From positions 1 through 64,000 of IMG/VR virus record IMGVR_UViG_3300045303_000221: a stretch of 64,000 bases of DNA; one strand, 5' to 3'. Source of the DNA: a virus. The notes beneath the pieces are model-generated. The model did not search any database. It was given only the letters and a program-made list of their open reading frames with translations, and was not told the origin of the DNA. The position numbers and the translations under genes were made by a program. Position 1 is the first letter of the stretch. Every line of letters begins with the position of its first letter. Below are positions 41,681 through 64,000 of this stretch, piece after piece.

Positions 41681-42097
41681 TTAGGCCGCTGCGGCGGCGA
41701 CGCCAAGGCTGGCGACCCCGAGGATGCTCATCAGCGTGCCGCGCGGGATCGAGCGGTTGCCGTGCATCGGCACGACCACCTTCCGGCCGCCGCCGGGCGG
41801 CTCAAAGACGGCGTGCGATCCCTTCTGGCCGATGCGCTTGAACCCGGCCTTCACGAGCATCTTGTAGACCTGCTTGGGAGTCATCGCCGGGAGCCGCGAG
41901 CCGACGAAGCTGCGCGTCTCGATCGGGTGCCCTTGGCCGTCCATCGGGATGAACTCGCCGATGCGGTTGCGGCGGTGCAGAGCCTCGTCCCACCGGACGG
42001 ACGGAGGGCGGGCCTCCATGATCCTCGCGGCGCGCAGGGCGACCGCGAGGGACACGCCGCGCGACTCGTGGAGAGCCACCCGATCCCAGAAGTCCAT
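41681..42097 (-). CDS. HicA-family mRNA interferase fused to an N-terminal HPR-like tag (leaderless)
   Basis: Start reassigned to MDFWD (TACGAT-N6-ATG on the - strand); WDEALHRRNRIGEF followed by MTPKQVYKML..AGF..IGQKGSH...VVVPMH...IPRGTL.SIL. Confidence 0.85.
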   Translation of the reverse strand: MDFWDRVALHESRGVSLAVALRAARIMEARPPSVRWDEALHRRNRIGEFIPMDGQGHPIETRSFVGSRLPAMTPKQVYKMLVKAGFKRIGQKGSHAVFEPPGGGRKVVVPMHGNRSIPRGTLMSILGVASLGVAAAAA

Positions 42098-42140
42098 GCG
42101 TGGATCGTAGTACGACCGCTGCGACCTGTAGCATTCAGGC

Positions 42141-43736
42141 ATGGGATGGGAGGACTCCGAGGCGCGGCGGTGTGCCGTGGAGCGCCTTCTCGCGGAGGCG
42201 GACTTCAACCCGGGCCTGCACCCGCACGACCGGCGCGGCCGGTTCATGCGCACCTGGCACCGCCCGAAGATGCCCGACTACGCGCAGGGCGGGCACCCGT
42301 TCGCGTCGCGCTACAAGCCGCACATCGACGTGCTGCGCGCGCTGGACGACGCGACGATCAAGCAGCTTGCGACGGAGCACAACGCGGCGTACCCCGAGGC
42401 GGCGGCGGAGATCGCGCAGGGCCACGGGATCGTGAAGGTGTCGATCAAGCCGGACAAGTACGGCAAGACGGCGGAGGTCGTGTTCGCGCCGCAGGTTGTG
42501 CTGGCGGACGGCGGCACGGCGTCGGCGGCCGAGCCGATGATCTTCCCGATCGCGCACGGCGGCGTGAACCGTCCGTTCCTGAAGCAGGTGAAGGGCCACT
42601 TCCGAGGGATGCAGGTGCCGGTGCACGTGGAGTCGGTGACCGGCTACTCGCGCGACACCGAGGTGATCCCTCCGACGATCCGCTCGCAGAGCCTGAGCCG
42701 TCAGGTCGCCACCGGGCAGGCCGACTCGCCGCAGCCGGTGATCCCGGGCCTCGACCCGCAGTCGCGCGCGGACGCGGTGCTGAAGCGCCTGGAGCCGCTG
42801 CGGACGATGCGGACGTACGGCGAGGGCTACGACCGGACGGTGGCGACGCACGCGAACGACGCGCAGCGGATGGCGCTGGCCGGGCGGGTGGACGAGGCGG
42901 AGCACTGGGCGACGCACGCCGAGAAGGCGGCGGCGCACGTGCGGGAGCGAGCGGCGGAGCGTGCAGCGCGAGGCACGGAGGCGTGGTCGAGCACGGCCTG
43001 GCAGCGCCAGCCGAGGATACGGGAGGGCGTCATGGAACTGGACCGGGACGAGGCGGTGGCCTACTACGGCCGCGCGATGGAGCGGCTGGCCGAGCACGGC
43101 TGGCGGCCTCAGCAGGCGCACACGATCGCGCTGGAGGCGGGACGCACGCGGTACGGCAGCGAGTTCAGCACGCTCGTCCTGAGCGAGGGCCTGTTCACGC
43201 GGCTCGGGCACGCCGTCGGCGGCGGCGCTACGCACTACGACAAGTCGAAGCACCCGCACGGCCGGGGCGGCAGGTTCGCGGAGACGCCGGACGCGCCGAA
43301 GCCGGTGCGCCACGAGGCCCCGGAGCCGGAGGCGGCGCTGCCGTCCGAGCACGGCCTGGCGAACATGACGCCGAGGGCGAAGTCGCTGGTGAACGCGGTC
43401 GCGCTCCACTACAAGGCGTTCGGCGGCTCCGACTCGGAGATGCGGTTCCGGTTTCAGTCCGGCAACCTGCATCCGCAGGATCTGCGGCGGATGCGGGAGC
43501 AGGCGATGCGCGCTCGCGATGAGCGCAGCAAGTCGGGCGACGCGGCGGGTGAGAAGGCGGCGCGCGACACGCTCAGCGCGATCAGAGTGGTGGAGCGCGA
43601 GCTTGGTCTGAGCGCCCAGACAGCGCAGCAGGAGAAGCCTGTCTCGTCCGAGGAACTGCTACGGCGGGTGCGCAACCGGCCGGTGGAGCGGTCGATCGTT
43701 GACCCGTACGGGCACTACTCGTATCAGACGGGCTAG
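42141..43736 (+). CDS. Multi-module protein with two HPR-like tags (leaderless)
   Basis: TAGCAT-N6-ATG; LLAEA-DFNPGLHPHDRRGRF and LSEG...YDKSKHPHGRGGRF. Confidence 0.75.
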   Translation: MGWEDSEARRCAVERLLAEADFNPGLHPHDRRGRFMRTWHRPKMPDYAQGGHPFASRYKPHIDVLRALDDATIKQLATEHNAAYPEAAAEIAQGHGIVKVSIKPDKYGKTAEVVFAPQVVLADGGTASAAEPMIFPIAHGGVNRPFLKQVKGHFRGMQVPVHVESVTGYSRDTEVIPPTIRSQSLSRQVATGQADSPQPVIPGLDPQSRADAVLKRLEPLRTMRTYGEGYDRTVATHANDAQRMALAGRVDEAEHWATHAEKAAAHVRERAAERAARGTEAWSSTAWQRQPRIREGVMELDRDEAVAYYGRAMERLAEHGWRPQQAHTIALEAGRTRYGSEFSTLVLSEGLFTRLGHAVGGGATHYDKSKHPHGRGGRFAETPDAPKPVRHEAPEPEAALPSEHGLANMTPRAKSLVNAVALHYKAFGGSDSEMRFRFQSGNLHPQDLRRMREQAMRARDERSKSGDAAGEKAARDTLSAIRVVERELGLSAQTAQQEKPVSSEELLRRVRNRPVERSIVDPYGHYSYQTG

Positions 43737-43739
43737 ACG

Positions 43740-43800
43740 CTAAGCACGCATCGTGCGCTATACTCCATGTGCGGGGCGAGTGCGCCGCAGAGAGGAGGAG
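43740..43800 (+). promoter_or_regulatory. Repeated cassette
   Basis: CTAAGCACGCATCGTGCGC-TATACT, TGCGG/CCGCA hairpin, GAGAGGAGGAG. Confidence 0.75.
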
Positions 43801-43806
43801 CGAATC

Positions 43807-44376
43807 GTGTCTATTTTCGAGCAGCCGATCAACGTCGATACCCGAGTCGGGCGGATGCTGGACGCGCTTGCTGTGTCTGACAACCGGCGCGGGATGGTGC
43901 TCGTCACCGTCACCGTGAAGGCTGCGGACGGAGGGCGGCGCTACCACGAGGCGTTCGCGATCAAGCAGTGGGCTGGCCGGGACGGGACCCGCAACCTGAG
44001 CGTGAGCATCCACAACTCGGGCGACTGGGCGTCGGGGATCAAGCCGATCACCGTCATGCACCTGAACCTGCTCACCCGCGAGATGTTCCCGGGGCGGGAC
44101 GAGCGCGGCGCTGCGCCGCTGATCCGGTACGCCGCGAACGCCGCGCTGCGGTTCGCGTGGACGGGGACGCTGCCGACTCCGGCGAACGGTTCGGTGGAGG
44201 CGGTCGAGGCGGCGAAGTGCGGCCGGTGCGGGGCGACCCTGGTCGATCCCGAGTCGATCGCGCGGGGCCTCGGGCCGGAGTGCGCGTCGAAGCCGACAGG
44301 CTCGCGGACGATCCGCTCCCGCGAGCGGCAGATGCAACTGGCCGAGCCGGAGCCGGACCTGGCTCCGACCGGCTGA
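43807..44376 (+). CDS. DUF6011-like zinc-ribbon protein
   Basis: CGRCGATLVDPESIARGLGPEC. Confidence 0.8.
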   Translation: MSIFEQPINVDTRVGRMLDALAVSDNRRGMVLVTVTVKAADGGRRYHEAFAIKQWAGRDGTRNLSVSIHNSGDWASGIKPITVMHLNLLTREMFPGRDERGAAPLIRYAANAALRFAWTGTLPTPANGSVEAVEAAKCGRCGATLVDPESIARGLGPECASKPTGSRTIRSRERQMQLAEPEPDLAPTG

Positions 44377-45016
44377 CTGAGAGAGGGGAGTGCCCTAGTC
44401 AGGGTGCTCCCCTTTCGCTATCGTTCTCTGCCCGGCCGGACGGCTGGGAGTGCCACCGGGCGGACGCCCGGAGGGAGGACGACGATGATCACCCGCATCC
44501 GCGTAGAGGCCGAGGGCGAGTCCCTGGAGGTAGTGGAGCGCGACCTGCGAGCCGTTCACGCTCGGCTCGTGGCGCACCTACCGGAGCCGCACGTCACGCA
44601 CACGCGCGAGCACGTCTACGAGGAGGTCGATCACGCCGACGCGCCGATCAGCGCCCGGTGGTTCAAGGGCCGGTACGTGTTCGCGTTCCCGGTGGATACG
44701 GAGCACTCGGTGGACGCCGCTCGGCTGAACGGCGAGGCAGCGCCGCCGAGGGAGGGCTTCGTGCCCGGCTACCGGGAAGTGATCGCTGAGCCGGGGACGC
44801 CGGTGACGGCAGCCGGACTCATCGCGGAGTCACAGCGCGCGGACGCGATGGCCGACCGGATGGAGCAGGTCGCAGAGCGGATCGCCGAGAAGTCACCGGA
44901 TCAGCGTGTGTCAGACCAGCTTGCCGCGATGGGCGGCGACGACGATGGAGCGCATGACGTGCGCTAGACTGTGCGCAACGGCCCGCGACCGACGGGCCTG
45001 ACGGCAGGAGCAGGAG

Positions 45017-45370
45017 ATGCTTGACACAGTGATGGACGGTCTGCGCTCCGCTGCGGCGGAGAAGCAGAGCGAGATCGAGGCGATGGAGGCTCGACTGGCC
45101 GATGCCCGGAGCGAGCTTCGGCGCGTGCACAGGGCCATCGCCGCGCTCGATCCGACGGTCGGACACGCACGCCGGGAGACGCCGGTGTTCGCGAACGAGG
45201 TGCGTCGGCTGCTCGCGGACGGGCCGATGACGAAGGCTGAGATCAGCCGCAAGATCGGCGGGCACCGGACGCGCGCCACGTACGCGCTGCGGACGCTGAT
45301 CGCGGCCGGGGAGGTCACGGCCACCGGCGAGCAGCGGTCGCGGTCCGACGAGTACGCGCTGACGGGCTAG
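45017..45370 (+). CDS. Coiled-coil plus winged-helix protein
   Basis: GPMTKAEISRKI...L..LIAAGEV. Confidence 0.6.
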   Translation: MLDTVMDGLRSAAAEKQSEIEAMEARLADARSELRRVHRAIAALDPTVGHARRETPVFANEVRRLLADGPMTKAEISRKIGGHRTRATYALRTLIAAGEVTATGEQRSRSDEYALTG

Positions 45371-45373
45371 CCG

Positions 45374-45637
45374 ATGCCCATGTACCGGAAGAAGCCGGTC
45401 GTCATCGAGGCGTTCCAGTTCGACTCGGAGACGACCGGCAACGCGATCGTGAAGTGGTCGGCGGGGATGGTGCGCGGCGTGTTCGATGACGACGAGGGGC
45501 CGTACCTGTCGATCGAGACGCACGAGGGGATCATGCGAGCGACGCTCGGTGACTGGGTGATCAAGGGCATCGCGCACGAGTATTACCCGTGCAAGGACGA
45601 CATCTTTCAGGCGACGTACGACCAGGCTGGCGAGTGA
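45374..45637 (+). CDS. Conserved phage protein
   Basis: YRKKPVVIEAFQF...IETHEG.M....GDWVIKG...EYYPCK.DIF..TY. Confidence 0.8.
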   Translation: MPMYRKKPVVIEAFQFDSETTGNAIVKWSAGMVRGVFDDDEGPYLSIETHEGIMRATLGDWVIKGIAHEYYPCKDDIFQATYDQAGE

Positions 45638-46346: not shown

Positions 46347-46578
46347 CGCGCCCGTCGATGCTGAGGTGTCCGCGCGACGAGGTGCACGAGGCGCACGACT
46401 GGCTGTGTCCGTGGCAGACGCCGACGGAGCGGTGGTGCCCGGGCGTCGCGCGCACGGAGACGTTCTACTACCGGGCGAATCGGCCGCGCGCGATGGACCT
46501 GCGCGATCGACCAAAGAAGATCGACATCCGGTGAGTTTTGGCTGCCCGTAAGGGATTGCCGCGAGGGCTGCCGGAGGG

Positions 46579-46628: not shown

Positions 46629-46635
46629 CACCGCC

Positions 46636-50302: not shown

Positions 50303-52195
50303 ATGGGCTGGCTTGAGGGCGTGTCGAAGCGGCTACAGGAGGCGGCTGGGGTGTCGCTGGTCGCGCCGGAGGAACGGGCGGTGGAGGAGCGCCTGTTGGA
50401 GGCGACGACGCGCGAGTTGAGCGCCACCCGGAAGGACCTCGACCTGCTCGGCTGGACGGCGCTGGACTACGTGGCCGGGATGCCGCAGGACATGCCGGTG
50501 CAGAACCGGCGCGAGCTTGTCGCGCACGCCCGGCGGGTGTGGCGGCGCGACCCGATGGCGGGCGCGGCCGTTGACCTGCTGAACGACTTCACGTTCTCGC
50601 GCGGCGTCCCGCTGCCGCGCGCTCGGGACGAGGAAGTGCAGATCGTGATCGATGAGGCGTGGAACGACGTGGACAACAAGGCGGTGCTGACGACGTACGC
50701 GGCGCAGCTAGCGCTCGGCACCGACCTGACGCTCCAGTCCAACGTGTTCCTGGCCGTGTTCGATGACGGCGACGACGGCAAGGTGAAGCTGACGATCGTG
50801 CCGCACGACTCGGTGATCGACGTGGTGCGCGACCCGGACAACCCGATGCGGATCCTCTACTACGTCGTGCAGGTGAACGACACGGAGTGGGACTTCGACG
50901 CGGACGCGCCGAAGGTGAAGGCGGCGGCGGGCGCGGCGGCGGGCACCGGCGGCACGTACAAGGCGGGGCAAGCGCCGGTCGGCCGGGTGCTGTATTTCGA
51001 GCACTGGCTGAACTGCCGGATGCTGCGAGAGGAAGGGATCGACTTCCCCGAGCCGCCAGCGGAGAAGCAGGCGGCGGGCAAGATGTACCACATCGCCACG
51101 AATCGCGGCTCGGAGATGGCGTTCGGCGTGCCGCGGATGGAGCGGACGCTGCGCTGGCTGACGGGCTACAACGAGATCGTCGCGGCGCGCGTGGACATGG
51201 CGAAGGCGGCGGCGGCCTTCATCATGAAGCGCAAGATCACCGGCACGAAGGGGCAGGTCGAGCGGCTGGCGTCGCAGGCCATCTCGCGCCGGTCGGAGCT
51301 TGGCGCGGCGAGCGCGGCGGGCACCGGCTCGCAGATTCCTCCGGCGACCGGTTCGATCCTGAACGAGAACGAGTCGGTGCAGCACGAGCCGTTGAAGCTG
51401 GACTCCGGGTCGAGCGGGGCGATGCAGGACGCGCAGATGATCCGCGCGCAGGTGTCGGCCGCGACGCGCTGGCCGCAGCACTACCTGGGCGACGTGAACG
51501 CTGCGAGCCTGGCCGGATCGACGGCGATCGAGCTTCCCGTGCTGAAGCTCGTGGAGGCCAACCAGGAACTGTTTGAGAACCTGTTCCGGGCGTTCCTCGA
51601 CCGCGTGATCGAGCGGGCGGTGGAGGTCGGGAGGCTCGACAAGAACGCGCCCGCGCCGGAGGGTGAGGCGCTGGAGGCGGCGGACAACGACGACGAGGAA
51701 TCGACCGAGCGCGACCTGAGCTACGAGTTCAAGATGCCGTCCGCGATGCGGCGGATGATGACCGACCTGGTGACTTCGGTCGCGACGACGGCGCAGACGT
51801 TCGACCCGAACAACTCCAACCTGGAACTGAGCCGGACGCTGCTCACGATCGTGCTGGGCGAGGCGTTTGAGCTACAGGACCCGGCGGAGGCGGTCGATCG
51901 CATCTTCCCCGAGGGCTATGTCGATCCGGCGGTGCAGGCGGCGCAGGCGCAGGCGGAGATCCCCGGCACCGAGGGGTTCGATCAGGCCAGCGAGGAAGGC
52001 GCTCCGACCGGCGGCGACGGGCAGGACCAGGCGACCAACCCGTACGGCGCTCCGATGAAGTCGCCGCCGCCGGAGCAGCGGGCGCGGATGGCGGAGGCCG
52101 CCGACGGCATCGAGGAGGCGCTGTTGGACGACCCGGCGTTCCGCGAGGCGTGGATCGCGGCGGTCGGCATCGGACGCAATGGCGACGGACACTGA
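50303..52195 (+). CDS. Portal protein
   Basis: 630 aa; DPMAGAAVDLLNDFTFSRGV...FGVPRM...WL..Y...PQHYLGD pattern; immediately upstream of the MuF-like gene. Confidence 0.75.
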   Translation: MGWLEGVSKRLQEAAGVSLVAPEERAVEERLLEATTRELSATRKDLDLLGWTALDYVAGMPQDMPVQNRRELVAHARRVWRRDPMAGAAVDLLNDFTFSRGVPLPRARDEEVQIVIDEAWNDVDNKAVLTTYAAQLALGTDLTLQSNVFLAVFDDGDDGKVKLTIVPHDSVIDVVRDPDNPMRILYYVVQVNDTEWDFDADAPKVKAAAGAAAGTGGTYKAGQAPVGRVLYFEHWLNCRMLREEGIDFPEPPAEKQAAGKMYHIATNRGSEMAFGVPRMERTLRWLTGYNEIVAARVDMAKAAAAFIMKRKITGTKGQVERLASQAISRRSELGAASAAGTGSQIPPATGSILNENESVQHEPLKLDSGSSGAMQDAQMIRAQVSAATRWPQHYLGDVNAASLAGSTAIELPVLKLVEANQELFENLFRAFLDRVIERAVEVGRLDKNAPAPEGEALEAADNDDEESTERDLSYEFKMPSAMRRMMTDLVTSVATTAQTFDPNNSNLELSRTLLTIVLGEAFELQDPAEAVDRIFPEGYVDPAVQAAQAQAEIPGTEGFDQASEEGAPTGGDGQDQATNPYGAPMKSPPPEQRARMAEAADGIEEALLDDPAFREAWIAAVGIGRNGDGH

Positions 52196-55100
52196 CCCGC
52201 TACGGGCACGACTGCGGGCGCTGACCGAGCAGGTGGTCGCGGCCGAGCCGCCGCCGGTGGAGGAGCCTCCGGCCCGGCCTGACGCGGTGACGGCGGCGAC
52301 GGGCCTGGCGGCGGCGCTCGCGGCTGGTGGGGCGGTCGCTCCGGTGGTGGTCGGCGTGCAGGCGTACAAGCAGGGCGCGGACACCGTGATGGCGGGGACG
52401 GCGATGGTGCTGGCGGCCCTCGCGCACCAGGCGGGCCAGATGGACGTGGCCGAGATCGTGGCGGCGGCGATGGACGACCCGGTGTTCGCCGACGACGACA
52501 TCGAGCAGGCCATCCAGGCCGAGCGGGCGATGCAGGAGACGTTCGTGCGCAAGCAGCGCGCCCGGGTGAAGCGCGACCTGCCGAAGGCGCTGAAGCTGGA
52601 GGACGCGGCCGAGCGACGGGCGGCCGTCCAGAAGCTCGTGGAGCGCGAGAAGCGCTACTCGCAACAGCGGATCGAGGCGTTGCGTGAGCGGCTGGCCGGG
52701 ATGGCGGAGATGAAGCGGGTCGAGGCGCAGTCGCCGGGCGGCGCGCTGTGGCTGCTCTCGGACGGCGTGAAGGTGCACACGCCGGACTGCATCGCGATGA
52801 GCGGGAAGGTGTGGCCGTGGCCGGTGCTGAAGCTGTGGCACCCGCCGCTGCACCACGGCTGTCCGTGCATCCTCGTGGGCATCCCGGACGCGCTCAAGCA
52901 GGGCCTGATCAAGCCGGGGATGATCCCCACCGACCACGCCGACGCGGTGAAGCGGGCGCGGGCGATCATGCGCAAGGCGCAGCGGTTGGAGGAGGTCGCG
53001 GCCGAGGGCGAGGTGGAGGCGTACCTGGAGGCCGTGGAGGCCCGCTGGGAGCGCCGCTTCCCGAAGGGCACCGACCGGGCCGGGCAGTTCATGCCGCGCC
53101 GGGGAGGGTCGGCGCGCGCGTTGCTGCGCGACCTGGTGCCGCGCCAGCCTCGCCGTCGGGTGACGCGGATCGGTGGGCACCGGGTGGTGATCCCCGAGGA
53201 GCGCAGCTTCAAGCGGACGATCGGCGACCACACGTACACGTCGCCGCCGGGCACGACGAAGGTGCTGCGGGACGGCAAGCCGCTCGGGCGCGACCCGGGG
53301 GGCGAGAAGCACGACCTGACGCTGACCCGGCCGACGGGCGACCTGCGGCCGTCCACGCCGGAGCGCGAGGCGCTGGCGAAGGTGCTGAACGGCGCGCAGG
53401 CGGACACGCTCACCGGGATGCGGTACGCGGGCGTGGAGGAGGGCCTGCTGGCGCACGGGTTCATCCCCGTGGCGGTGAAGGGGGAGGACCCGCTCAACCG
53501 CTACTTCTACCGGCACCCGTCCGGCTCCACGATGACGCTGAACCTGGTGCGGTGGGCTTCCGGGCGGATGGAGGTCGGCGTCGCGTACTACTCCCCGGCG
53601 CAGGTGCCGGTGCGCGCCGACTACCCGCGCGCGAGCAGGCCGCCGGAGACGTGGGACGAGTTCCTGAAGGACGCGACGGCGCTGGCGGCGAACATCGCGG
53701 AGCGCACGAACGCGCACCTCGGGCTGGGGACGATCGCGACGAGCGAGCACCTTACTGACCACACCGGCGACCACTCATGGGATGGCGACATTCGGCTCGC
53801 GCCGAACGTGATGGCGGACGTGCAGGATGCGCTCAACAAGCAGGCGCGGGGCGAGACGATCACGCTCCCGTCCCCGGTGTACCGCGCGTACCACACGACC
53901 GCACACGAGCTTCTGCACGCGATCAATGCGGGCACGGCGGGCGACTACCACACGCAGGGCGGCCGGACGCTGGAGGAAGCGCTGGTCGAGGAGTTGTCGC
54001 ACGTAGTGGCGCAGGAACTGCTCTCCGATCACGGCCTGGGAGAGGTCGCGCAGTGGGCGGCGAACAACCCCTCCAAGGACGCCGCGCGCGGCACGTACAT
54101 CGGGTTCCGGGCGACGCTGGACGGGATGCTGAACGACGCGGGCGTGCCCGCCGCTGACCGGCCGGGCCTGCTCTGGGCGATGAAGACGGGGATGCAGACG
54201 GACGACCGACTGGAGTTCCTGGCGGCGCTGATGAAGACGGACGTGGAGGCGGTGCGCGGGCGGCTCACATCCAACGCGACCGGCAAGGACATGGCCGAGT
54301 ACCTGCCGATGGTCGCCGCATCGACACGGCCTGTCGTGACGCCGGGCGTGTTCCGGATGGGCGGCGAGCAGGTCGGCCGGGGCGCGCTGCTGCGGCTCAA
54401 GGACGGCACGATCACGCGGGTGGCGGACGTGGGCGACCAGAACGGCGTCGTGTTCGCGTGGACGGACGACGAGGAGGGTCACGTGCACCTCGTGACCGAG
54501 GGTGACGTGGACAGGGTGCTGACCCCGCCGACCAGTCGCGGCGACCAGGGCAGGTCGCTGGCGCTGCGCTGGGAGGGCGCTGCGGAGCACGAGGACGTGG
54601 CGATCGGCGACGTGATCGACTTCGGCGACGGTACGCACGGCCGGGTGGAGGACGTGTTCGGCCGCGGTTCCGCGACGGCGATCAGGGTCGCGACCGATCA
54701 GGGGTCGGTGTGGGTGACCGAGAAGCGGCGCACCGTGCACCCGATCAAGGTCACGACCGGACGCGGCCCCGAGATGGAGGAGCCGCCCGAGGCGAAGGCG
54801 ACCGGCACGCAGTCGATCATCGACGCCGGGTTCGGCAAGGCGGAGCAGGCCGGGGAGGAACTGATGCTGCTCCAGAGCGTGCCGCACCTCCTGCGGATGT
54901 CGCTGCACCGGGTGCTGGTGCGGCAGCGCGAGCTACAGCGGATCGTCGGCCGCGACCCGATGGCCGCGAACGCCGACGTGGTGGAGGCGGAGGCGGAGCT
55001 TCGCCGGATCGAGCGGCTGATCAAGGCGCGAGAGGCGGCGCGCGACGCCCGCGCCAAGGCGTTCAAGCGCGAGCACGGCTACTGGGCGATCACGCAAGCC

Positions 55101-55343
55101 GAGTACGACGCGGCGATGGACGAGCCGAACGTCACCACCGACGACCCGCACGTGGCGCTCCCCGGCGGCGTCGTCGCTCCGAAGTCCGTGATCTTCGACC
55201 ACGTGCATCGGCCGGACGGGAAGATCAGGATCGTGAAGGCGCTGCGCGACGCGCGGGACGCGCCGATGTACCGCAGCGACCTGCTCTCGCAGGAGCATCG
55301 CGAGGCGGCGCTGAGGTCAATCGGCGCGTACGATCCGGACTAG
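52179..55343 (+). CDS. MuF-like head morphogenesis protein extended with HPR-like tag, zincin (HExxH) and SH3-like modules
   Basis: HTPDC...PPLHHGCPC MuF-type motif; WERRFPKGTDRAGQF; HELLH...LEEALVE. Confidence 0.7.
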   Translation: MATDTDPLRARLRALTEQVVAAEPPPVEEPPARPDAVTAATGLAAALAAGGAVAPVVVGVQAYKQGADTVMAGTAMVLAALAHQAGQMDVAEIVAAAMDDPVFADDDIEQAIQAERAMQETFVRKQRARVKRDLPKALKLEDAAERRAAVQKLVEREKRYSQQRIEALRERLAGMAEMKRVEAQSPGGALWLLSDGVKVHTPDCIAMSGKVWPWPVLKLWHPPLHHGCPCILVGIPDALKQGLIKPGMIPTDHADAVKRARAIMRKAQRLEEVAAEGEVEAYLEAVEARWERRFPKGTDRAGQFMPRRGGSARALLRDLVPRQPRRRVTRIGGHRVVIPEERSFKRTIGDHTYTSPPGTTKVLRDGKPLGRDPGGEKHDLTLTRPTGDLRPSTPEREALAKVLNGAQADTLTGMRYAGVEEGLLAHGFIPVAVKGEDPLNRYFYRHPSGSTMTLNLVRWASGRMEVGVAYYSPAQVPVRADYPRASRPPETWDEFLKDATALAANIAERTNAHLGLGTIATSEHLTDHTGDHSWDGDIRLAPNVMADVQDALNKQARGETITLPSPVYRAYHTTAHELLHAINAGTAGDYHTQGGRTLEEALVEELSHVVAQELLSDHGLGEVAQWAANNPSKDAARGTYIGFRATLDGMLNDAGVPAADRPGLLWAMKTGMQTDDRLEFLAALMKTDVEAVRGRLTSNATGKDMAEYLPMVAASTRPVVTPGVFRMGGEQVGRGALLRLKDGTITRVADVGDQNGVVFAWTDDEEGHVHLVTEGDVDRVLTPPTSRGDQGRSLALRWEGAAEHEDVAIGDVIDFGDGTHGRVEDVFGRGSATAIRVATDQGSVWVTEKRRTVHPIKVTTGRGPEMEEPPEAKATGTQSIIDAGFGKAEQAGEELMLLQSVPHLLRMSLHRVLVRQRELQRIVGRDPMAANADVVEAEAELRRIERLIKAREAARDARAKAFKREHGYWAITQAEYDAAMDEPNVTTDDPHVALPGGVVAPKSVIFDHVHRPDGKIRIVKALRDARDAPMYRSDLLSQEHREAALRSIGAYDPD

Positions 55344-58470: not shown

Positions 58471-60654
58471 ATGGACCTGACAGCGCAGATCGAGGCGGCT
58501 GCGCAGACCGCCGACCCCAACGAGCGCCGGGCGAAGCTCCGCATCCTGCGAGAGGAAGCGGAGGCGCAACTGGGGACGATCGACACCCACCTCGCCGACG
58601 TGGACTACGAGCGCGAGGCCGCCGTCCACGAGTTCACCGCCAAGGAAGCCGCCGCGCGCCACAACGCCACCCTGCGCGAGGAACTGATCCGACGCGGCAT
58701 CTCCGACGAAGCGAGCATGGACGACGCCGGACTGCTCTCCCACGCCGACCTCGACGCGCTCTCCGAGGAGGGCCTGCTGGAGCACGCACTGGACGTGCTG
58801 TTCCCCGTCACCGAGGGGGCGGGCGGGAAGGTGTTCGGCACCATGATCCACTTCCAGGAGAAGCTGCACCCGCGCGGCCGAGGCGGCAAGTTCGCGAAGA
58901 AGCCCGGCGGTGGCGGCCCCGAGCCGAAGGCCGCGAAGCGCGCCCCGAACGTGCCCGGCAACGGCGGCGGCAAGACCAAGGCGCAGTCGCGCGCCACACC
59001 GGCACCGGCCGCCAGCGCATCACACGCACGACGCGAGGCGGAAGCCGCCCGCGCGAAAGAGTTCAAGCCGGTCGTGCCGGAGGACGTGCCGCAGCGCCCG
59101 AAGGGCCAGAGCGAGGAGAACAAGGCGAAGGTCGCGAACCTCGCAGCACGCATCGGCAAGCGCATCGCCGGAGCCGCCGCAGGCCGCCAGTCCTCACCGG
59201 AGAACACGATCTTCAACGCGAAGGGCAGCGTCTCACAGCACACGCTGCTCCAGTACGTCCGCGACGCCGCCAGCGAGCCGGACACGATGCAGCTTCACTC
59301 GCGCATGGGCCAAGACGGCCGACCCGTGTTCACCGCGGAACGCAAGGCCCTGCACGAGGCGATCATCGACATGGCGCTGCGCGCACCACGCTTCCGCCCA
59401 GACCCGCAGAAGCCCGACAAGAAGCTCCTGGAGTTCGACCCGAACGGCGCATTCCTGGAACCCGACCCCGACGGCCAGCCCAAGACGCTATTCAGCGGCG
59501 GCGGCTACGCAGCGGGCAAGGGCGCAAGCCTCGCCCGACTCGGAGACGACGAGAAGCCACGCAACGCGATCCTGCTCGACCCCGACCGGATCAAGGCGCT
59601 CCTCCCCGAGTTCCACGACGGCCTGGACAGCGACGACCCCGAAGCGAACCTGCACGTCTACCGCGAAGCGTGGGAGATCGCGCAGGAAGTGCAGCGCCGC
59701 GCCCAGGCGAAGAAGCTGAACATGGTCGTGGACGGCATCTCGGACACGACGGTGGAGGAAATCGACTCGCGCGTGCAGAGCTTCCTCGACCACGGCTACA
59801 AGGTGCACATGGTCTACACCGACATCCCCACGGAGGAAGCGATCAGCCGCGCAGCGGGACGCGCAGCCGGGGCGAAGGCCGACAGCGACCGACGCCACAT
59901 CCCCGACACGATCATGCGCGCAGTGCACCGCGACGTGGCCGCGACGATCCCAGCCCTCATGGAGCACATGCAGTCGAAGCCGGAAGGCACCGCAAGGCCA
60001 CGCATCGAGGTGTACGACAACCACCAGGGACAAGCCGACGACGGATCGTTCAACCCGCCGAAGCGAATGGCGCTATTCGACCCGGAGACGGGCCAGTTCA
60101 ACGTGGAGGACGACGCGCTGTGGCAGCGCCTGCAAGCGAAGGGCGACGAGAAGATCCCCGGCCTCGACGCGCCGGAACGACCCGCGCAACCCGCGCCGGT
60201 CAGCGAAGCGGCGGAACCGCCGCAGGAAGGAGCGCCCGCCGTGCAGCCGGACGCACCCACACCGACACCCGCAGACGAGCCGCCCGCACCGACGCCCGGC
60301 CCGAAGACGACGGACGAGATCGTGCAGGCCGGACTGCGCGTGGACGTGCCGTACGAACTGCCCGCCAGCCAGCCACTGAAGTACGAGGAAGGCGAACCGG
60401 CAGCGGAGACGCCGCCGGTGAACGCGAGCGAGATGGCCGACCGCGCGAGCGACGCGCTGGAGCGCAGCGGCATGACGAACGACCCGGACAGCAGCGCCGC
60501 GACCGGCCTGTTCCAGTACGACGCGCACGACGAGGCGGATGCCGTGAATCAAGCTCCGAAGGATGATTCACAGCCGGAAGCGAAAACGCCTGCAAATCCG
60601 GCACCGGTGAATACACCGAAGCCACCTTCGCCCACCGGCGGGACGCAGGGCTAG
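58471..60654 (+). CDS. Zeta-toxin-like P-loop kinase with N-terminal HPR tag (leaderless)
   Basis: TAGACT-N7-ATG; FQEKLHPRGRGGKF; GGGYAAGKG Walker A, LLDPDRIK, NMVVDG, GYKVHMVY...AI.RA..R...R.IP, YDN. Confidence 0.8.
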   Translation: MDLTAQIEAAAQTADPNERRAKLRILREEAEAQLGTIDTHLADVDYEREAAVHEFTAKEAAARHNATLREELIRRGISDEASMDDAGLLSHADLDALSEEGLLEHALDVLFPVTEGAGGKVFGTMIHFQEKLHPRGRGGKFAKKPGGGGPEPKAAKRAPNVPGNGGGKTKAQSRATPAPAASASHARREAEAARAKEFKPVVPEDVPQRPKGQSEENKAKVANLAARIGKRIAGAAAGRQSSPENTIFNAKGSVSQHTLLQYVRDAASEPDTMQLHSRMGQDGRPVFTAERKALHEAIIDMALRAPRFRPDPQKPDKKLLEFDPNGAFLEPDPDGQPKTLFSGGGYAAGKGASLARLGDDEKPRNAILLDPDRIKALLPEFHDGLDSDDPEANLHVYREAWEIAQEVQRRAQAKKLNMVVDGISDTTVEEIDSRVQSFLDHGYKVHMVYTDIPTEEAISRAAGRAAGAKADSDRRHIPDTIMRAVHRDVAATIPALMEHMQSKPEGTARPRIEVYDNHQGQADDGSFNPPKRMALFDPETGQFNVEDDALWQRLQAKGDEKIPGLDAPERPAQPAPVSEAAEPPQEGAPAVQPDAPTPTPADEPPAPTPGPKTTDEIVQAGLRVDVPYELPASQPLKYEEGEPAAETPPVNASEMADRASDALERSGMTNDPDSSAATGLFQYDAHDEADAVNQAPKDDSQPEAKTPANPAPVNTPKPPSPTGGTQG

Positions 60655-60685
60655 CCGAAATGATTCACGCGAAAGAGGTAGCCGC

Positions 60686-61024
60686 ATGGCGATGACCGTC
60701 CGTCGGATCGTGCTGGACGACGTGGTGGGGCCGCAGAAGGTGCAGATGGCACCGGAGGGCTTCCCGATGACCGCCACCTACTGGAGGGACCCGGACGACG
60801 AGGGGATGACCGTCTCGGCGCTGGTGCTGTACGCGGCGGCGGACGAGGCCGACTCGACCGCGGAGTGGACGGTGACGGTGGTGCGGGCCGGGGACGTGGT
60901 GCCGGACGACGGCAGCTACGTCGCGTCCACGCTGGCCGCCGACGGCCGCGTCCGGCACGTGTTCGTGACGCCGCCGGACTGGGACATCGACGGCACCGAC
61001 CCGCCGTCGTCCGACGCCGCGTAG
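60686..61024 (+). CDS. Hypothetical protein
   Basis: AGAGG RBS; YVAST...VRHVF. Confidence 0.6.
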   Translation: MAMTVRRIVLDDVVGPQKVQMAPEGFPMTATYWRDPDDEGMTVSALVLYAAADEADSTAEWTVTVVRAGDVVPDDGSYVASTLAADGRVRHVFVTPPDWDIDGTDPPSSDAA

Positions 61025-61340: not shown

Positions 61341-61631
61341 GTGAGCACCCCTCTGCCACTGCTCGCGTTGGACAGCACCGTCAGCGTGGTCACGACGATC
61401 GTGGCGGTCGTGTCGGCGCTGTCGGCGATCGTGCTGGGCTGGCTGAAGTGGGGCCGGGAGGACGCCGGGCAGACCGCTTCGACGGCGAAGACGCTGGTCG
61501 AGACGATGCGCGATGTGAGCGCTGAGGTGAAGGCGCAGCGGGACGAGTGCATGGTGGATCGTGAAGCGCTGCGCGTAAAGGCGCAGAATCTGGAGGCCGA
61601 GCTTGACCGGCGGGAGGCCGAGCGTGGCTGA
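61341..61631 (+). CDS. Membrane-anchored coiled-coil protein (possible lysis accessory)
   Basis: TAGAGT-N8-GTG; one TM helix plus coiled coil. Confidence 0.6.
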
Positions 61632-62298
61632 GCAGCCCGAGGTCACCGAGGTGATCGAGCGAGAGGACGACGACGAGTCTGCGCTGGTGGGAGCGCTGGA
61701 CGGGATGGCGGCCGAGATCCGGACGCTGCACTGGCGCTCGCGGCTGTCGCTGATCGTGATGGGCGTGCTGACGCTGTTGACGATCCTGGCGTTCGGGACG
61801 GCGGCGCTGTCGCTGCGGCAGACGGCGAACGCGGCGAAGGACCGGGCGTCGCAGGCGAAGGTGGAGGCGCAGGCGGCGAACGCCTTGCTGGTGCAGTGCC
61901 TGACGAAGCAGACGCAGGCGGAGATTCAGGCGTGCCTCGGGGTGATGCCGGGTGCTCCGGGCGAGCCGGGCGTGGAGGGCGCGGCGGGCGTGCCGGGAGT
62001 GCCGGGGACGCCGGGCGAGCAGGGCCAGCCGGGCGCGATCGGGAAGCAGGGGCCGCCGGGCGCGACGGGGCCTGCGGGTCCGGCCGGGCCGACGGGGAAG
62101 GGAGGGCCGCGAGGCGCTACGGGATCGCGAGGGGCGACGGGTCCGACGGGGCAGACCGGCCCGCAGGGGACGCCTGGGCCGCCGGGTCGGCGTGGGCCAG
62201 CGGGGCCGCAGGGACGGCCGGGCGCTCCGGCGCAGTTCCCGCTGACGATGACGTGCCGCTCGCCGGATGGCCGCACGTTCACGTGTAACCCCGCGTGA
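61624..62298 (+). CDS. Membrane-anchored collagen-like protein
   Basis: TM helix, Gly-X-Y run, C-terminal Cys pair. Confidence 0.75.
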
Positions 62299-62318
62299 GC
62301 GACAGCTAGAGTCTGCTC

Positions 62319-64000
62319 GTGGAGCCGCACGACGATCTGTCTGAGGCCGCTGGCGGAACGCCGCCACCGAAGCGTCGCGGTGGGCAGGGCGCGAACCAGG
62401 AGTTTGAGGGCGCGCACCCGCGATCGGCGAAGGGCCGGGTGGGCGGCGGCGAGTTCGCGAAGAAGCCCGGGCAGGGCGGCGCGGCGAAGCCGAAGATGCA
62501 GGCGGTGTCGGTCGCGTCGGCGCTGAAGGCGGCCGGGGTGAAGTCGATCGCCGAGTTCCAGAAGACGCGCGGGCTGCCGGTGACGGGCAGGCTCGACTCG
62601 CGGACGATGGTGGCGCTGCGCAACGCCTACGTCGCGCACCTCGTGGACTTGCAGTCCGGCGGTGGGACGGCGGCCGGGACGAACGCGGCGGCGAAGGCCG
62701 GGGTGACGCTCGGGCTGCACGACTACGCGAAGCGCGGGATGGGCACGAAGGCAGACCCGGACTCGCGCGTGAGCCGGGTGCAGCAGACCCTGGAGCGGCT
62801 GGGCTACGACGTGCCGATCGACGGCGTGTATAGCTCCGAGCTTGAGACGGCCGTGAAGCAGTTCCAGGCCGACCACGGACTGCCCGCCACGGGCGTCGTG
62901 AGCGTGCAGACGCTGCGGCAGATGGACAAGCTCCACTCGCAGCGCGACGCCGGGAAGGAGCCGGGCGGCGGCCTGTCGGCGGACACGCCGGGCACGAAGC
63001 ACCGGGTCGGCACGGACGAGGTGAAGTCGCTCGCGAACCGGGCACGCGCCGGGCGGATCGCGCGCACCGGCCGGGTGGCGGCGACGGTGAAGACGACCAC
63101 CCCGAAGGCGAAGGCGAAGCCGACCGGCACGAAGCCGCGCAAGCCGCCTGCGACGACGGCCGTGAAGATCACCCAGGCAGCGGTCGATGAGCCGGACGAG
63201 GCGCGCTTCGACGCGCTCGTGATCGACGGCGAGGAGGTCGAGCCGACGGACGTGACGACGCTCCCCTGGTGGGACGAGGACGAGACGTTCGCGCAGGAGG
63301 CGGCGATCGACTGGCGCGAGGTGCTGCACCCCCGGAACCGGCTCGGGAAGTTCCGGCGCGTGTTCGGCGACCCGCGCCCACAGACGCACACGCAGCGGCT
63401 GGTGGCGGAGCCGCCGGTGCAGACGCGGCGCACGGCCGGGAAGCTCGGGGCGCGTCGCACACGGCGCGAGACGCCGGTGCCGGACCAGTGGGGCCAGAAG
63501 CTGATCGAGCACGCCGAGTGGAGCGACAAGGACAACAAGTGGCTCCAGGAGGGCGGGGTGCTGGCGACGGTCACGCACCTGGCGACGGCGCACCGCTGGC
63601 CGAGCATCGCGCCGTTCCAGGGGTTCGACGCGAAGTCGCTGCGCAACTCGGAGGGCGAGCTTCGGATCAGGCCGCCGCAGGAGGTGAACGGGCAGCGCAT
63701 TTTCGAGCAGTGGTGGATCACGGCCGCGATCAGCGCGGCGAAGAAGGGCGTCACCGAGATGGTGATCGCGCACGAGGTGGGGCACATGCTGGACGCATCG
63801 CTGATGCGCCCCGAGGACGGCCAGCCCGATCCGCGCAACAAGAGGATGGACTACCACTTCCACGGCAGCGAGGCAGCGGCGAACATGTCGATCGAGACGA
63901 TCGAGCGGCAGGGCTTCGCGATGTCGGCGGAGCAGCACGCGAGGTGGCGCGAGTTCCTGAAGATCGCCGTCACGCCGTCGGTGCTGGGGCAGACGAAGTA
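62319..64000 (+). CDS. Multi-module protein with two HPR tags, peptidoglycan-binding domains and a zincin HExxH motif (runs off the window; absent from ORF track)
   Basis: Translated by hand: TAGAGT-N6-GTG; [18 protein letters not shown]; [13 protein letters not shown] and [10 protein letters not shown]...DG.Y....[15 protein letters not shown]; [14 protein letters not shown]; [10 protein letters not shown]. Confidence 0.8.

What the first reader, a model, noticed from the sequence alone, without database searches (positions are those of the whole stretch)
41681..64000. Shared HPR peptide tag after Glu sites on five dispersed genes with different cargos: candidate capsid-loading/effector-delivery system
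SEEN: seven copies of one short motif in otherwise unrelated proteins. They are WDEALHRRNRIGEF (41951-41992, - strand, before HicA); FNPGLHPHDRRGRF (~42204-42245) and YDKSKHPHGRGGRF (43236-43277) in 42141-43736; WERRFPKGTDRAGQF (53046-53090, most divergent, after the MuF domain and before a zincin); FQEKLHPRGRGGKFAKKPG (58852-58908, before the zeta-like kinase); [23 protein letters not shown] (62403-62471, before the PG-binding domains); and [14 protein letters not shown] (63312-63353, before a second zincin). Every copy lies within about 20 aa after an x-x-E-(A/G) site (IMEA, LAEA, LSEG, YLEAVEA, VTEG, LSEA, AQEA), and the portal has similar sites (LQEA, LLEA, ALEA, MAEA). KNOWN: the T4 gp21 and phiKZ gp175 prohead proteases cut after Glu, T4 internal proteins use a short capsid-targeting peptide, and MuF proteins can carry toxin extensions. 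INFERENCE: the tag is a modular address label. Polyproteins would be packaged in the prohead, cut at Glu, and released as tag-led effectors (RNase, kinase, peptidases) injected with the DNA. Four of the five genes have their own leaderless promoter, consistent with independently acquired cargo cassettes.
Basis: partly seen in the sequence, partly recalled or inferred. Interest (0 to 1): 0.9.

Follow-up and report, generated by a model that had tools for sequence, protein, structure and literature searches.

The report
Junction tag on phage head cargo
An uncultured soil phage puts one short peptide, just after a likely cutting site for its own head protease, in front of at least sixteen different protein modules (toxins, peptidases, a kinase, RNA enzymes). 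These are therefore probably loaded into the virus head, cut apart and injected with the DNA, using a widespread signal that I could not find described anywhere.

Summary
The motif is real and was under-counted. The 87.9-kb contig holds 16 profile-supported copies of [WFY]-x3-[LKQ]-H-P-R-x3-G-x-[FW] in 9 genes. Eight lie in one 3,915-aa polyvalent protein that runs off the window. The MuF-like gene carries a seventeenth, divergent but conserved, variant. None lies in the first 41 kb.

In the 1.84-billion-protein representative library, 669 proteins match the motif profile. Nearly all of the 150 best hits carry several copies, with the same cargo types (zeta, HicA, PG-binding, ART, GNAT, CCA-type enzymes).

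In 14 of 16 copies a PHI-x-E-[A/G/S] site lies just upstream. The same site is strongly over-represented in the protease-scaffold protein (17 seen, 3.3 expected), the portal and the capsid protein N-terminus. The N-terminal domain of the protease-scaffold protein folds like T4 gp21, the Glu-specific prohead protease (Z 10.9).

An unrelated phage has Lys before its tags and Lys-type sites in its scaffold. The tag-led parts are almost cysteine-free.

The cut-at-Glu reading is therefore well supported indirectly. The address-label role of the tag, packaging and injection are untested.

Earlier agents of this scan found the same tag in other phages. I found no paper or curated family that describes it.

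The parts
41681..42097 (-). HicA-toxin gene with an N-terminal leader, a cut-type site (IME|A) and the tag WDEALHRRNRIGEF (41951-41992)
   Evidence: Pfam HicA_toxin E 3e-16. Tag scored by both HMMs. Start at 42097 inferred from TACGAT-N6-ATG. HicA+tag fusions were seen in 2 of 65 other tag proteins.
42141..43736 (+). 531-aa two-module protein of unknown function. Tags at 42204-42245 (after LAE|A) and 43236-43277 (after LSE|G)
   Evidence: No Pfam, PHROG or NCBIfam hit. The single Cys lies in the 19-aa leader before the first site.
42129..42134 (+). TAGCAT -10-like hexamer 6 nt before the ATG of 42141 (leaderless-type start). Equivalent hexamers lie at 42104-42109(-), 58458-58463 and 62307-62312
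   Evidence: TANNNT-N5-8-start at 19 high-GC3 gene starts in the contig. The sigma-70 consensus scan found none.
50303..52195 (+). Portal protein, with PHI-x-E-[AGS] sites clustered at both ends
   Evidence: phrog_10963 portal, E 2.8e-27. 10 sites against 3.9 expected, z 3.4. Positions.
52179..55343 (+). 1,054-aa MuF-like protein (start overlaps the portal stop region) with one HExxH motif. Divergent tag-like element at 53046-53090, after YLEAVEA
   Evidence: No Pfam or PHROG MuF hit. The variant element is conserved in the MuF homologues of relatives G1 and G2 but is not scored by the tag HMMs. There is no Cys after residue 230.
58471..60654 (+). 727-aa protein: 115-aa N-terminal part, VTE|G site, tag FQEKLHPRGRGGKF (58852-58893), Zeta-toxin-type kinase domain
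   Evidence: Pfam Zeta_toxin E 2.4e-20. Tag. Zero Cys. Zeta+tag seen in 5 of 65 other tag proteins.
62319..64000 (+). First 560 codons of a 3,915-aa polyvalent protein (gene runs to contig position 74066). Tags at 62403-62456 and 63312-63353 in the window. Six more follow, with H codons at 65886, 67278, 69306, 70656, 72039 and 72966
   Evidence: The modules are 2x PG_binding_1, four zincin (HExxH)+LPD1 modules only 30-38% identical to each other, GNAT, PolyA_pol/CCA-type nucleotidyltransferase, and two unknown modules. Zero Cys.

Best explanation
The window is part of an uncultured phage of about 88 kb or more (CheckV completeness 74%). The DNA comes from soil, and the closest relatives sit in MAGs of Actinomycetota.

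Between its portal (50.3 kb) and its protease-scaffold and capsid genes (85.0-87.9 kb), and just upstream of the portal, it encodes a set of head-cargo proteins. There are nine tagged genes, one of them a 3,915-aa polyvalent protein. Each module begins with the same composite junction:
(1) In most stand-alone genes, a short leader.
(2) A PHI-x-E|(A/G/S) site. I infer that the phage's own T4 gp21-type prohead protease cuts here.
(3) 1-20 residues later, the tag [WFY]-x-(E)-x-L-H-P-R-(D/G)-x-x-G-(R/K)-(F/W), which is conserved across phage lineages.

Most likely mechanism: the proteins are built into the prohead with the scaffold. The protease then cuts at the Glu sites, which degrades the scaffold, trims the capsid protein and the portal, and splits the polyproteins into tag-led modules of roughly 300-850 aa. 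The nearly cysteine-free modules leave the capsid with the DNA and act early in the next host. By their domains, the candidate activities are mRNA cleavage (HicA), zeta-type kinase, peptidoglycan binding, zincin peptidases, acetyltransferase and RNA 3'-end nucleotidyltransferase.

Shown here: the motif and its excess, its position at module starts, the site enrichment and its specificity, the protease fold, the gene location, the cysteine depletion, and the Glu versus Lys parallel between two phages.

Inferred: that the sites are cut, that the proteins are in virions, that they are injected, and what the tag itself binds. My estimates for the tag's own role:
- loading onto scaffold or capsid interior: about 0.35-0.4
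- exit or DNA-associated signal: about 0.2
- other: the rest
For: Motif:
- 14 strict matches against 0.056 expected.
- 15-16 copies by two HMMs, none in genes before 41 kb.
- The identical core HPRDRRGRW persists between zincin modules that are only 30-38% identical. That points to purifying selection on the tag.

Family:
- 669 representative proteins at E<=1e-3 and 107 at E<=1e-10. Nearly all of the 150 best hits have 2-18 copies.
- The median distance between tags is 294 aa. Only 2 of 144 proteins end within 40 aa of their last tag, so tags lead modules.
- The cargo domains recur: PG_binding, Zeta, ART, GNAT, PolyA_pol, HD, HicA, NUDIX. MuF and an S78_2 head protease occur once each. No conjugation-type domain is among the 25 families listed.

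Cut site:
- 14 of 16 tags follow PHI-x-E-[AG] (p 2e-11).
- Protease-scaffold protein: 17 sites against 3.3 expected (z 7.8). The controls are flat: PHI-x-D-[AGS] 0 against 3.2, reversed pattern 3 against 3.3, E followed by a non-small residue 8 against 9.8.
- Twelve site columns are kept in at least 30 of 45 homologues.
- IFE|A is conserved near the capsid protein N-terminus in two 46%-identical relatives.
- Genes before 41 kb are not enriched: 56 seen, 48.5 expected.

Protease:
- Domain model with pLDDT 80. The best of 48,161 PDB representatives is T4 gp21 (5jbl_A): Z 10.9, 130 of 165 residues aligned. Herpesvirus proteases also appear in the list.
- His61 and Ser128 are invariant in 45 homologues.
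- T4 gp21 cuts after L/I-x-E, including Glu-Ala bonds (PMC9026906).

Parallel case:
- An unrelated phage locus (L029, 45% GC) has 7 tags in 4 genes flanking its portal and preceding its protease and capsid genes. Each tag follows PHI-x-K.
- Its protease-scaffold protein is enriched for PHI-x-K (33 seen, 18 expected, z 4.2) and not for PHI-x-E (z 1.0).
- Among hits with three or more copies, the pre-tag residue is lineage-specific: E 23, K 11, D 2, R 2.

Cysteine: 2 Cys in 6,092 tag-led residues, against 76 expected at the genome's 1.25%. Family-wide the figure is 0.20%.
Against: - No direct evidence exists: no virion proteome, no N-termini, no expression data.
- The tag lies on the C-terminal side of the putative cut. 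It is therefore not removed as the T4 capsid targeting sequence is, and its role as the loading signal is only one of several possibilities.
- Two tags lack an upstream Glu site (70641-70682, and the N-terminal one at 74072-74113). Family-wide, only 31% of copies have E-[AGS] upstream.
- The gp21 assignment is by fold only. Foldseek found nothing, and the profile comparison with the T4 gp21 sequence was not significant.
- Helical Ala/Glu/Leu-rich scaffolds might favour L-x-E-A for structural reasons, although the controls argue against that.
- Two tagged genes (HicA, 42141) lie 6.5 kb upstream of the portal, and one of them is on the other strand.
- Untagged genes are interspersed in the block, among them a methyltransferase-like gene and an SLT lysin.
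- Cyanophage PSS2's MuF-zeta polyvalent head protein has no tag, so the tag is not general to polyvalent proteins.
Confidence: 0.62

Rival explanations
1. The junction is processed by the polyvalent proteins' own zincin metallopeptidase modules, in cis or in trans, as Iyer et al. proposed for MPTase domains. On this reading the tag is the zincin's recognition element, not a capsid signal.
For: Four of the eight tags in the giant protein, and the variant in the MuF-like protein, are followed within about 150-290 aa by an HExxH module. An extended junction, DVTTLPWW...EA..W...LHPRDRRGRW, precedes three of those four modules. PMC5512222 predicts autoproteolysis by such domains.
Against: Most tags precede non-zincin cargo: HicA, zeta, PG-binding, GNAT/CCA and unknown modules. 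Only 54 of 148 tag proteins contain HExxH at all. The relatives G1 and G2 and the K-type phage L029 have tags but no homologue of these zincins, and no convincing HExxH in their head blocks. A zincin would not explain why the pre-tag residue matches the sites enriched in each phage's scaffold.
Confidence: 0.08
2. The system is the same protease-cut head cargo, but the tag works after cleavage. It could be an exit or translocation signal for passage through portal and tail, or a basic DNA-binding handle that lets modules leave with the DNA. On this reading it is not the capsid-loading label. Loading would be done by the removed leader or by the scaffold.
For: The tag stays on the module after the inferred cut. 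It sits at the new N-terminus. In this phage it is very basic (HPRDRRGRWR). The modules are nearly Cys-free, as expected for proteins that must pass unfolded through a narrow channel and an oxidising compartment. The stand-alone genes share a separate pre-cut leader resembling W-D-x-S-E-Q-R-x-R-x-V...L-x-E, which could be the true analogue of the T4 capsid targeting sequence.
Against: Family-wide, only two basic positions of the tag are conserved, and many copies are acidic (HPRGEHGRW). Some genes start directly with the tag, with no leader: 74063 here, and L038 and L039 in relatives. Loading cannot depend on a leader in those. There are no data on ejection.
Confidence: 0.2
3. The motif is a structural linker or folding element at domain boundaries of proteins that act inside the producing cell (host takeover, lysis, defence against other phages) and are never packaged.
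For: No virion data exist. Several tagged genes have their own leaderless-type promoter-like starts. One is on the opposite strand. PG-binding and toxin domains could equally act in the infected cell.
Against: It does not explain the adjacent protease-type site that changes with lineage. It does not explain the confinement to head-gene blocks in three unrelated contexts (G000, L029, L038/L039). It does not explain the tenfold cysteine depletion, or the fusion of tags to MuF or head protease in other hits.
Confidence: 0.08

Closest known systems
Phage T4 internal proteins (IPI-III, Alt) with the capsid targeting sequence, processed by prohead protease gp21
   Same: Non-structural proteins are carried in the head and injected. 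A short modular peptide suffices for loading foreign proteins. Cleavage follows L/I-x-E, often Glu-Ala, by a gp21-fold serine protease that also degrades the scaffold and trims the capsid and portal-region proteins (PMC9026906). Here there is a gp21-fold protease and PHI-x-E-[AGS] sites in the scaffold, capsid protein N-terminus, portal and cargo.
   Different: The T4 targeting sequence is the first ~10 residues, lies before the cut and is removed. Here the conserved tag lies after the cut and would be kept. The tag sequence is unrelated to the T4 one. It is used inside giant polyproteins as well as at N-termini. It recurs in phages whose pre-tag residue is Lys or Asp. This phage is not T4-like: its capsid protein is a Pfam Phage_capsid_4 member and its protease is fused to the scaffold.
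Giant-phage head processing (phiKZ gp175, 201phi2-1, SPN3US): inner-body and ejection proteins cut at S/A-x-E
   Same: Many head proteins, including ejected ones, are cut after Glu at a minimal motif, with redundant sites in the propeptides (PMC9026906).
   Different: I know of no shared tag after the cut described for those phages (my own knowledge plus the searches). Their genomes and capsids are much larger.
Phage-type polyvalent proteins (Iyer, Burroughs, Anand, de Souza, Aravind 2017; PMC5512222)
   Same: The 3,915-aa protein strings PG-binding, zincin, LPD1, GNAT and nucleotidyltransferase domains together in a head-gene block. This is exactly the class predicted to be packaged and injected. 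The same domain vocabulary appears in other tag proteins (ART-PolyVal, Zeta, NUDIX).
   Different: The paper's text contains no hit for HPR, linker, junction-type terms or conserved motif. It proposes zincin autoproteolysis rather than prohead-protease cutting at lineage-matched sites. PSS2 gp030, a polyvalent MuF-zeta protein, lacks the tag.
MuF polymorphic toxins of temperate phages (Jamet et al. 2017; PMC5576092)
   Same: A head-associated N-terminal carrier with variable C-terminal toxin cargo, and a modular exchange of effectors.
   Different: There the carrier is the MuF domain itself. No junction, linker or cleavage term is found in that paper. Here most cargo is not fused to MuF, and the MuF assignment of 52179-55343 is not profile-supported.
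Encapsulin cargo-loading peptides and the HK97 protease C-terminal capsid-targeting tail (my own knowledge, not tested here)
   Same: Short, transferable peptides that dock cargo onto the inner face of an HK97-fold shell.
   Different: Those peptides are usually C-terminal, have different sequences and are not paired with protease sites. No docking of the HPR tag to any shell has been shown.

Membership tests
Phage-type polyvalent proteins (Iyer et al. 2017) | One polypeptide with several unrelated effector or enzymatic domains, including family-specific LPD domains | tested here: met
   Gene 62319-74066: PG_binding_1 x2 (E 4e-23), LPD1 (41.7 bits, cut-off 27), PolyA_pol (E 2.7e-12), PolyA_pol_RNAbd, four HExxH modules, and a sub-threshold GNAT hit.
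Phage-type polyvalent proteins (Iyer et al. 2017) | Encoded among virion/head genes of a phage with a portal-terminase packaging system | tested here: met
   Portal 50303-52195 (phrog_10963). Terminase large subunit 28768-30540 (GpA_ATPase). Protease-scaffold 85015-86358 and capsid protein from 86853 (PF25209, E 3e-35).
T4-type prohead processing (gp21 / capsid targeting sequence) | Prohead serine protease of the gp21/assemblin fold | tested here: met
   Domain model against 48,161 PDB representatives: 5jbl_A Z 10.9, rmsd 3.2 A, 130 of 165 aligned, next unrelated hit Z 5.4. This is fold level only. Sequence-profile comparison with T4 gp21 was not significant. Foldseek found nothing.
T4-type prohead processing (gp21 / capsid targeting sequence) | Cleavage after Glu in a hydrophobic-x-Glu motif in scaffold, capsid protein and internal proteins | tested here: inconclusive
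   Strong, specific and conserved enrichment of PHI-x-E-[AGS] in the scaffold, portal, capsid protein N-terminus and pre-tag positions. No cleavage was observed.
T4-type prohead processing (gp21 / capsid targeting sequence) | Targeting peptide lies N-terminal of the cut and is removed on maturation | tested here: not met
   The conserved tag lies 1-20 residues C-terminal of the putative cut in 14 of 16 copies. A weakly shared pre-cut leader exists in the stand-alone genes, but it is lineage-specific.
T4-type prohead processing (gp21 / capsid targeting sequence) | Proteins are present in virions and injected | not testable with these tools
   Uncultured phage. No proteome exists, and no RNA holder was listed.
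MuF (SPP1 gp7 / Mu F) head morphogenesis proteins and MuF polymorphic toxins | Profile match to Phage_Mu_F / MuF PHROGs in the N-terminal domain | tested here: not met
   52179-55343 has no Pfam hit at E<0.1 except noise, and no PHROG or NCBIfam hit. Only its position after the portal and the motif C-x23-C-x-C preceded by PPLHH resemble MuF. One other tag protein in the family does hit Phage_Mu_F.
HicA / Zeta toxin domains as cargo | Curated Pfam match above the gathering score | tested here: met
   HicA_toxin 59.7 bits (cut-off 27). Zeta_toxin 73.2 bits (cut-off 22.3). No HicB-like neighbour was found.

The most novel reading that the evidence does not exclude
The HPR..G.(F/W) peptide is a general cargo code of tailed phages that does not depend on the protease family. 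Any module led by it is taken into the prohead and later delivered to the host. Each lineage simply places its own protease's cut site (Glu here, Lys or Asp elsewhere) in front of it. If so, the injected protein repertoire of thousands of uncultured phages could be read directly from sequence. The tag would also be a portable handle for packaging foreign proteins into phage capsids.
Probability: 0.35. Interest if true: 0.9.

Novelty: new variant of a known kind. Interest (0 to 1): 0.74.

Why it matters
Which proteins a phage carries in its head and injects ahead of gene expression is known for only a handful of model phages. For the huge polyvalent proteins it has remained a prediction.

A short tag found across phage lineages, paired with a cut site that matches each phage's own head protease, would turn that prediction into a testable rule that can be read from sequence. 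It would define the early-strike arsenal of uncultured phages: RNases, kinases, ADP-ribosyltransferases, peptidases and RNA-modifying enzymes. It would explain how 4,000-7,000-aa polyproteins are made usable. It would also offer a candidate handle for loading proteins into capsids.

This genome adds three things. It is a clear Glu-type case with a gp21-fold protease. It is a very rich one, with 16 tags, 8 of them in one protein. And its tag-led sequence is almost completely free of cysteine.

Tried and rejected
- Megablast of the portal-MuF region and tblastn of a zincin module against 50,697 phage records: no match. tblastn of the portal protein found only a 24%-identical archaeal virus. No cultured relative with a proteome is therefore available.
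- tblastn with a 28-aa tag query: only noise at E 10.
- tblastn with the zeta protein led to cyanophage PSS2 gp030, a MuF-zeta head protein. It has no tag.
- Profile of the tag against PDB sequences: nothing below E 1.
- No Pfam, PHROG or NCBIfam model covers the tag or the unknown tagged proteins.
- Literature: searches for HPR-type motif strings returned only unrelated papers. The polyvalent-protein paper and the MuF-toxin paper contain no junction, linker or motif description. 'Polyvalent protein' plus 'prohead protease' gave nothing relevant. This covers the open-access library only.
- Foldseek on both protease models: no match at E<=0.001.
- hhalign of the protease family against T4 gp21, and against the L029 protease: not significant.
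- Sigma-70 consensus scan of 41000-60900: 0 sites. This scan is not informative for Actinomycetota-type promoters.
- No RNA holder was listed for the stretch.
- Chance as an explanation is rejected.
- The tRNA-like element at 56338-56415 is below Rfam gathering scores.

Full report
WHAT THE DNA IS. The window is the first 64 kb of a single 87,892-bp virus record: linear, CheckV completeness 74%, about 70% G+C. It has no near relative among 50,697 deposited phage genomes. Near-identical DNA is held by one soil metagenome, which may be the source of this DNA. Four other soil metagenomes hold only 9-23% of its sampled words. Relatives of its head protease lie on contigs binned with Actinomycetota MAGs such as Baekduia.

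The left 41 kb carries replication and DNA-handling genes. These include Ku, an N6/N4 methylase, an SNF2 helicase and a gpA-type large terminase at 28768-30540.

The head block is as follows:
- portal 50303-52195 (phrog_10963, E 2.8e-27)
- a 1,054-aa MuF-like protein, 52179-55343
- about 30 kb of mostly unknown genes
- a protease-scaffold gene at 85015-86358
- the capsid protein from 86853 to the contig end (PF25209, E 3e-35)

THE OBSERVATION. Searching the whole contig with F or W allowed at the last position gives 16 copies of [WFY]-x3-[LKQ]-H-P-R-x3-G-x-[FW] in 9 genes:
- the HicA gene on the minus strand
- gene 42141-43736 (two copies)
- the zeta-kinase gene 58471-60654
- one giant gene, 62319-74066 (eight copies)
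- four further genes beyond the window, starting at 74063, 74961, 78670 and 80145

The starts at 74063 and 80145 are GTG codons that overlap the preceding stop as GTGA.

A strict pattern occurs 14 times against 0.056 expected from shuffles. An HMM built only from 451 instances in other organisms' proteins recovers 15 copies, and no gene before 41 kb scores.

Neither HMM scores the copy in the MuF-like protein. The same divergent element does sit at the same place in the MuF homologues of two related phages. I therefore treat it as a conserved variant, not as a confirmed member.

ANATOMY OF THE GIANT PROTEIN. The 3,915-aa product is a textbook polyvalent protein:
- a 32-aa leader
- two PG_binding_1 repeats
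- four zincin (HExxH) modules, each followed by an LPD1 signature
- a GNAT-like segment plus a PolyA_pol/CCA-type nucleotidyltransferase
- two modules of unknown function

The tags sit exactly at the module boundaries, giving modules of 304, 853, 464, 676, 450, 461, 309 and 366 aa. The four zincin modules are only 30-38% identical to each other. Six of the eight tags nevertheless share the identical core HPRDRRGR(W/F), so the tag is under much stronger constraint than the domains it separates.

THE MOTIF ELSEWHERE. A profile of the 16 local copies was run against 1.84 billion representative proteins. It found 669 proteins at E<=0.001 and 107 at E<=1e-10. Nearly all of the 150 best carry 2-18 copies, in proteins of 239 to 7,334 aa.

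In 453 instances from 144 of these proteins, the positions not fixed by my extraction pattern behave as follows:
- an aromatic residue at -5 in 420
- Glu at -3 in 338
- Leu or Lys at -1 in 326

Tags are spaced a median of 294 aa apart. In 54 proteins the first tag lies within 60 aa of the N-terminus. Only 2 of 144 proteins end within 40 aa of their last tag. Tags therefore head modules rather than trail them.

Sixty-five of the hits were scanned against Pfam and show the same cargo vocabulary as here: PG_binding, Zeta toxin, ADP-ribosyltransferases including ART-PolyVal, GNAT, PolyA_pol with HD, HicA, and NUDIX. Phage_Mu_F and a Peptidase_S78_2 head protease occur once each. All ten hits whose source I looked up come from metagenome or MAG assemblies.

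THE GLU SITE AND THE PROTEASE. In 14 of 16 local copies a PHI-x-E-[A/G] site lies 6-27 residues before the His, against a background of 0.124 (p 2e-11). In 10 of 16 the Glu lies 7-11 residues before the His.

Against composition-matched shuffles, the wider pattern PHI-x-E-[A/G/S] gives:

| Protein or set | Seen | Expected | z |
|---|---|---|---|
| Protease-scaffold protein | 17 | 3.3 | 7.8 |
| Portal (clustered at both ends) | 10 | 3.9 | 3.4 |
| Partial capsid protein | 5 | 1.6 | 2.7 |
| Pooled genes before 41 kb | 56 | 48.5 | about 1.1 |

The enrichment is specific. The Asp version is depleted (0 against 3.2). The reversed pattern is at expectation (3 against 3.3). Glu followed by a non-small residue is not enriched (8 against 9.8).

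In 45 homologues that are 45-87% identical, the protein carries 17.6 sites on average, and twelve alignment columns keep a site in at least 30 sequences. The capsid proteins of two relatives keep I-F-E|A about 15-23 residues from their N-termini.

The protein has a beta-rich N-terminal domain followed by long acidic helices. Folded alone (pLDDT 80, pTM 0.75), the domain's best match among 48,161 PDB representatives is the T4 prohead protease gp21: 5jbl_A, Z 10.9, rmsd 3.2 A, 130 of 165 residues. The next unrelated chain scores Z 5.4. Herpesvirus proteases are also listed. The whole-protein model gave Z 7.7 for the same hit. His61 and Ser128 are invariant in the family and are the candidate catalytic pair. 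I could not verify their structural equivalence to the gp21 active-site residues.

T4 gp21 cuts after L/I-x-E, first seen at a Glu-Ala bond in the scaffold. The phiKZ-type proteases cut at S/A-x-E (PMC9026906). The gene simply lies outside the window.

A SECOND, INDEPENDENT LINEAGE. The Glu site is not part of the conserved tag. Only 31% of family-wide copies have E-[AGS] upstream, and the trait is bimodal between proteins. Among hits with three or more copies, the residue before a small residue just upstream of the tag is consistently Glu in 23, Lys in 11, Asp in 2, Arg in 2, absent in 26 and mixed in 26.

I followed one Lys-type case. It is a 105-kb IMG/VR contig at 45% G+C (locus L029). It has seven tags in four genes that flank its portal and precede its head protease and capsid genes. 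Each tag is preceded by PHI-x-K. Its protease-scaffold protein is enriched for PHI-x-K (33 seen, 18 expected, z 4.2) but not for PHI-x-E (z 1.0). Here the reverse holds: PHI-x-K-[AGS] is 2 against 1.05.

The two proteases show no detectable sequence similarity. The constant part (the tag) and the variable part (the pre-tag residue) thus behave as expected if each phage's own head protease cuts in front of a shared signal. Earlier agents of this scan reported the same pattern in other phages. My check covers two lineages, not a survey.

CYSTEINE. Downstream of their first tag, the nine proteins contain 2 Cys in 6,092 residues. The rest of the proteome has 1.25%, which predicts 76. The giant protein has none. 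The MuF-like protein has none after residue 230. Family-wide the tag-led parts hold 0.20% Cys, and 41 of 148 proteins have none at all. This is an independent mark of the cargo set. It fits proteins that must travel unfolded or through an oxidising compartment, though that reading is inference.

PROMOTERS. A -10-like TANNNT hexamer lies 6-7 nt before the start codons at 42097(-), 42141, 58471, 62319 and 78670. These genes lack a Shine-Dalgarno sequence. The portal, protease and capsid genes have one. About 19 gene starts in the contig share it, as expected for a phage of a host that uses leaderless mRNAs. It is no evidence of separate acquisition.

WHAT THE TAG ITSELF DOES. This remains open.
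- Because it follows the cut, it would form the new N-terminus of every released module. That is the opposite of the T4 targeting sequence.
- It occurs with two unrelated protease families, so it is unlikely to be read by a protease active site.
- It could dock modules to the scaffold or to the inner capsid face during assembly. That is my preferred reading, at about 0.35-0.4.
- It could instead act later, as an exit or DNA-associated signal.
- The zincin-autoprocessing idea of Iyer et al. fits four junctions here. It fails to explain the many tags before non-zincin cargo, the tag-bearing phages with no zincin nearby, and the match to scaffold sites.

NOVELTY AND LIMITS. The general system is known from T4 and the phiKZ-like phages: head-packaged proteins processed by the prohead protease. 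Polyvalent proteins are also a described class. What I could not find is a description of this tag or of its pairing with lineage-matched cut sites. I looked in Pfam, PHROGs, NCBIfam, PDB sequences, the polyvalent-protein and MuF-toxin papers and the open-access text library.

The library excludes most subscription journals, so prior description cannot be excluded.

Noticed in passing
contig 85015-86358 (outside the window; L009:12015-13358): Protease and scaffold are one 447-aa protein. It has a gp21-fold N-terminal domain and an acidic, helical C-terminal part full of PHI-x-E-[AGS] sites. More than 320 homologues exist, all uncultured and all without a Pfam domain, so this large head-protease family is not in curated libraries.
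   Followed up: yes
contig 74063 and 80145 (L008:12063, L008:18145): Two tagged genes start with a GTG that overlaps the previous gene's TGA (GTGA). They read like further modules of the preceding polyprotein, split off by a stop codon and probably translationally coupled.
   Followed up: partly
window 42141-42200; contig 74961-75040, 78880-78960, 80145-80215: The stand-alone tagged genes share a second, weaker motif before the Glu site, resembling W-D-x-S-E-Q-R-x-R-x-V-x-x-H-L. It could be a removable leader analogous to the T4 capsid targeting sequence.
   Followed up: no
window 56338-56415 (+): ARAGORN calls a 78-nt tRNA-like gene with a four-base anticodon (caac). Rfam gives only sub-threshold hits (tRNA-Sec 22.4 bits, gathering score 47). 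It may be an odd tRNA or a false call.
   Followed up: partly
window 28768-30540 versus 50303: The large terminase gene (GpA_ATPase, E 8e-21) lies 20 kb upstream of the portal, separated from it by helicase and other non-structural genes. This is an unusual arrangement for a tailed phage.
   Followed up: no
window 8388-9236 and 2693-7891: A Ku-domain protein (E 5e-18), and a 1,732-aa ORF with high GC3 and no Pfam hit at all.
   Followed up: no
contig 83261-84917 (outside the window): Two untagged, cysteine-containing cell-wall genes lie directly upstream of the protease gene: one with PG_binding_1, one with SLT transglycosylase plus PG_binding. They contrast with the tagged, Cys-free PG-binding module of the giant protein.
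   Followed up: no
contig 78670-78990 (outside the window): The N-terminal ~100 aa of the 492-aa tagged protein precede three PHI-x-E sites and contain a D-G-S-F-P-I...D-L-x-N-A motif. Its C-terminal 130 aa match phrog_13953 (unknown function, E 4e-19).
   Followed up: no
L014 (G002 contig 42691-48351): The related 129-kb phage has an ORF of about 1,886 aa in its head block, with no tag detected inside it, next to tagged zeta-like and PG-binding genes.
   Followed up: no
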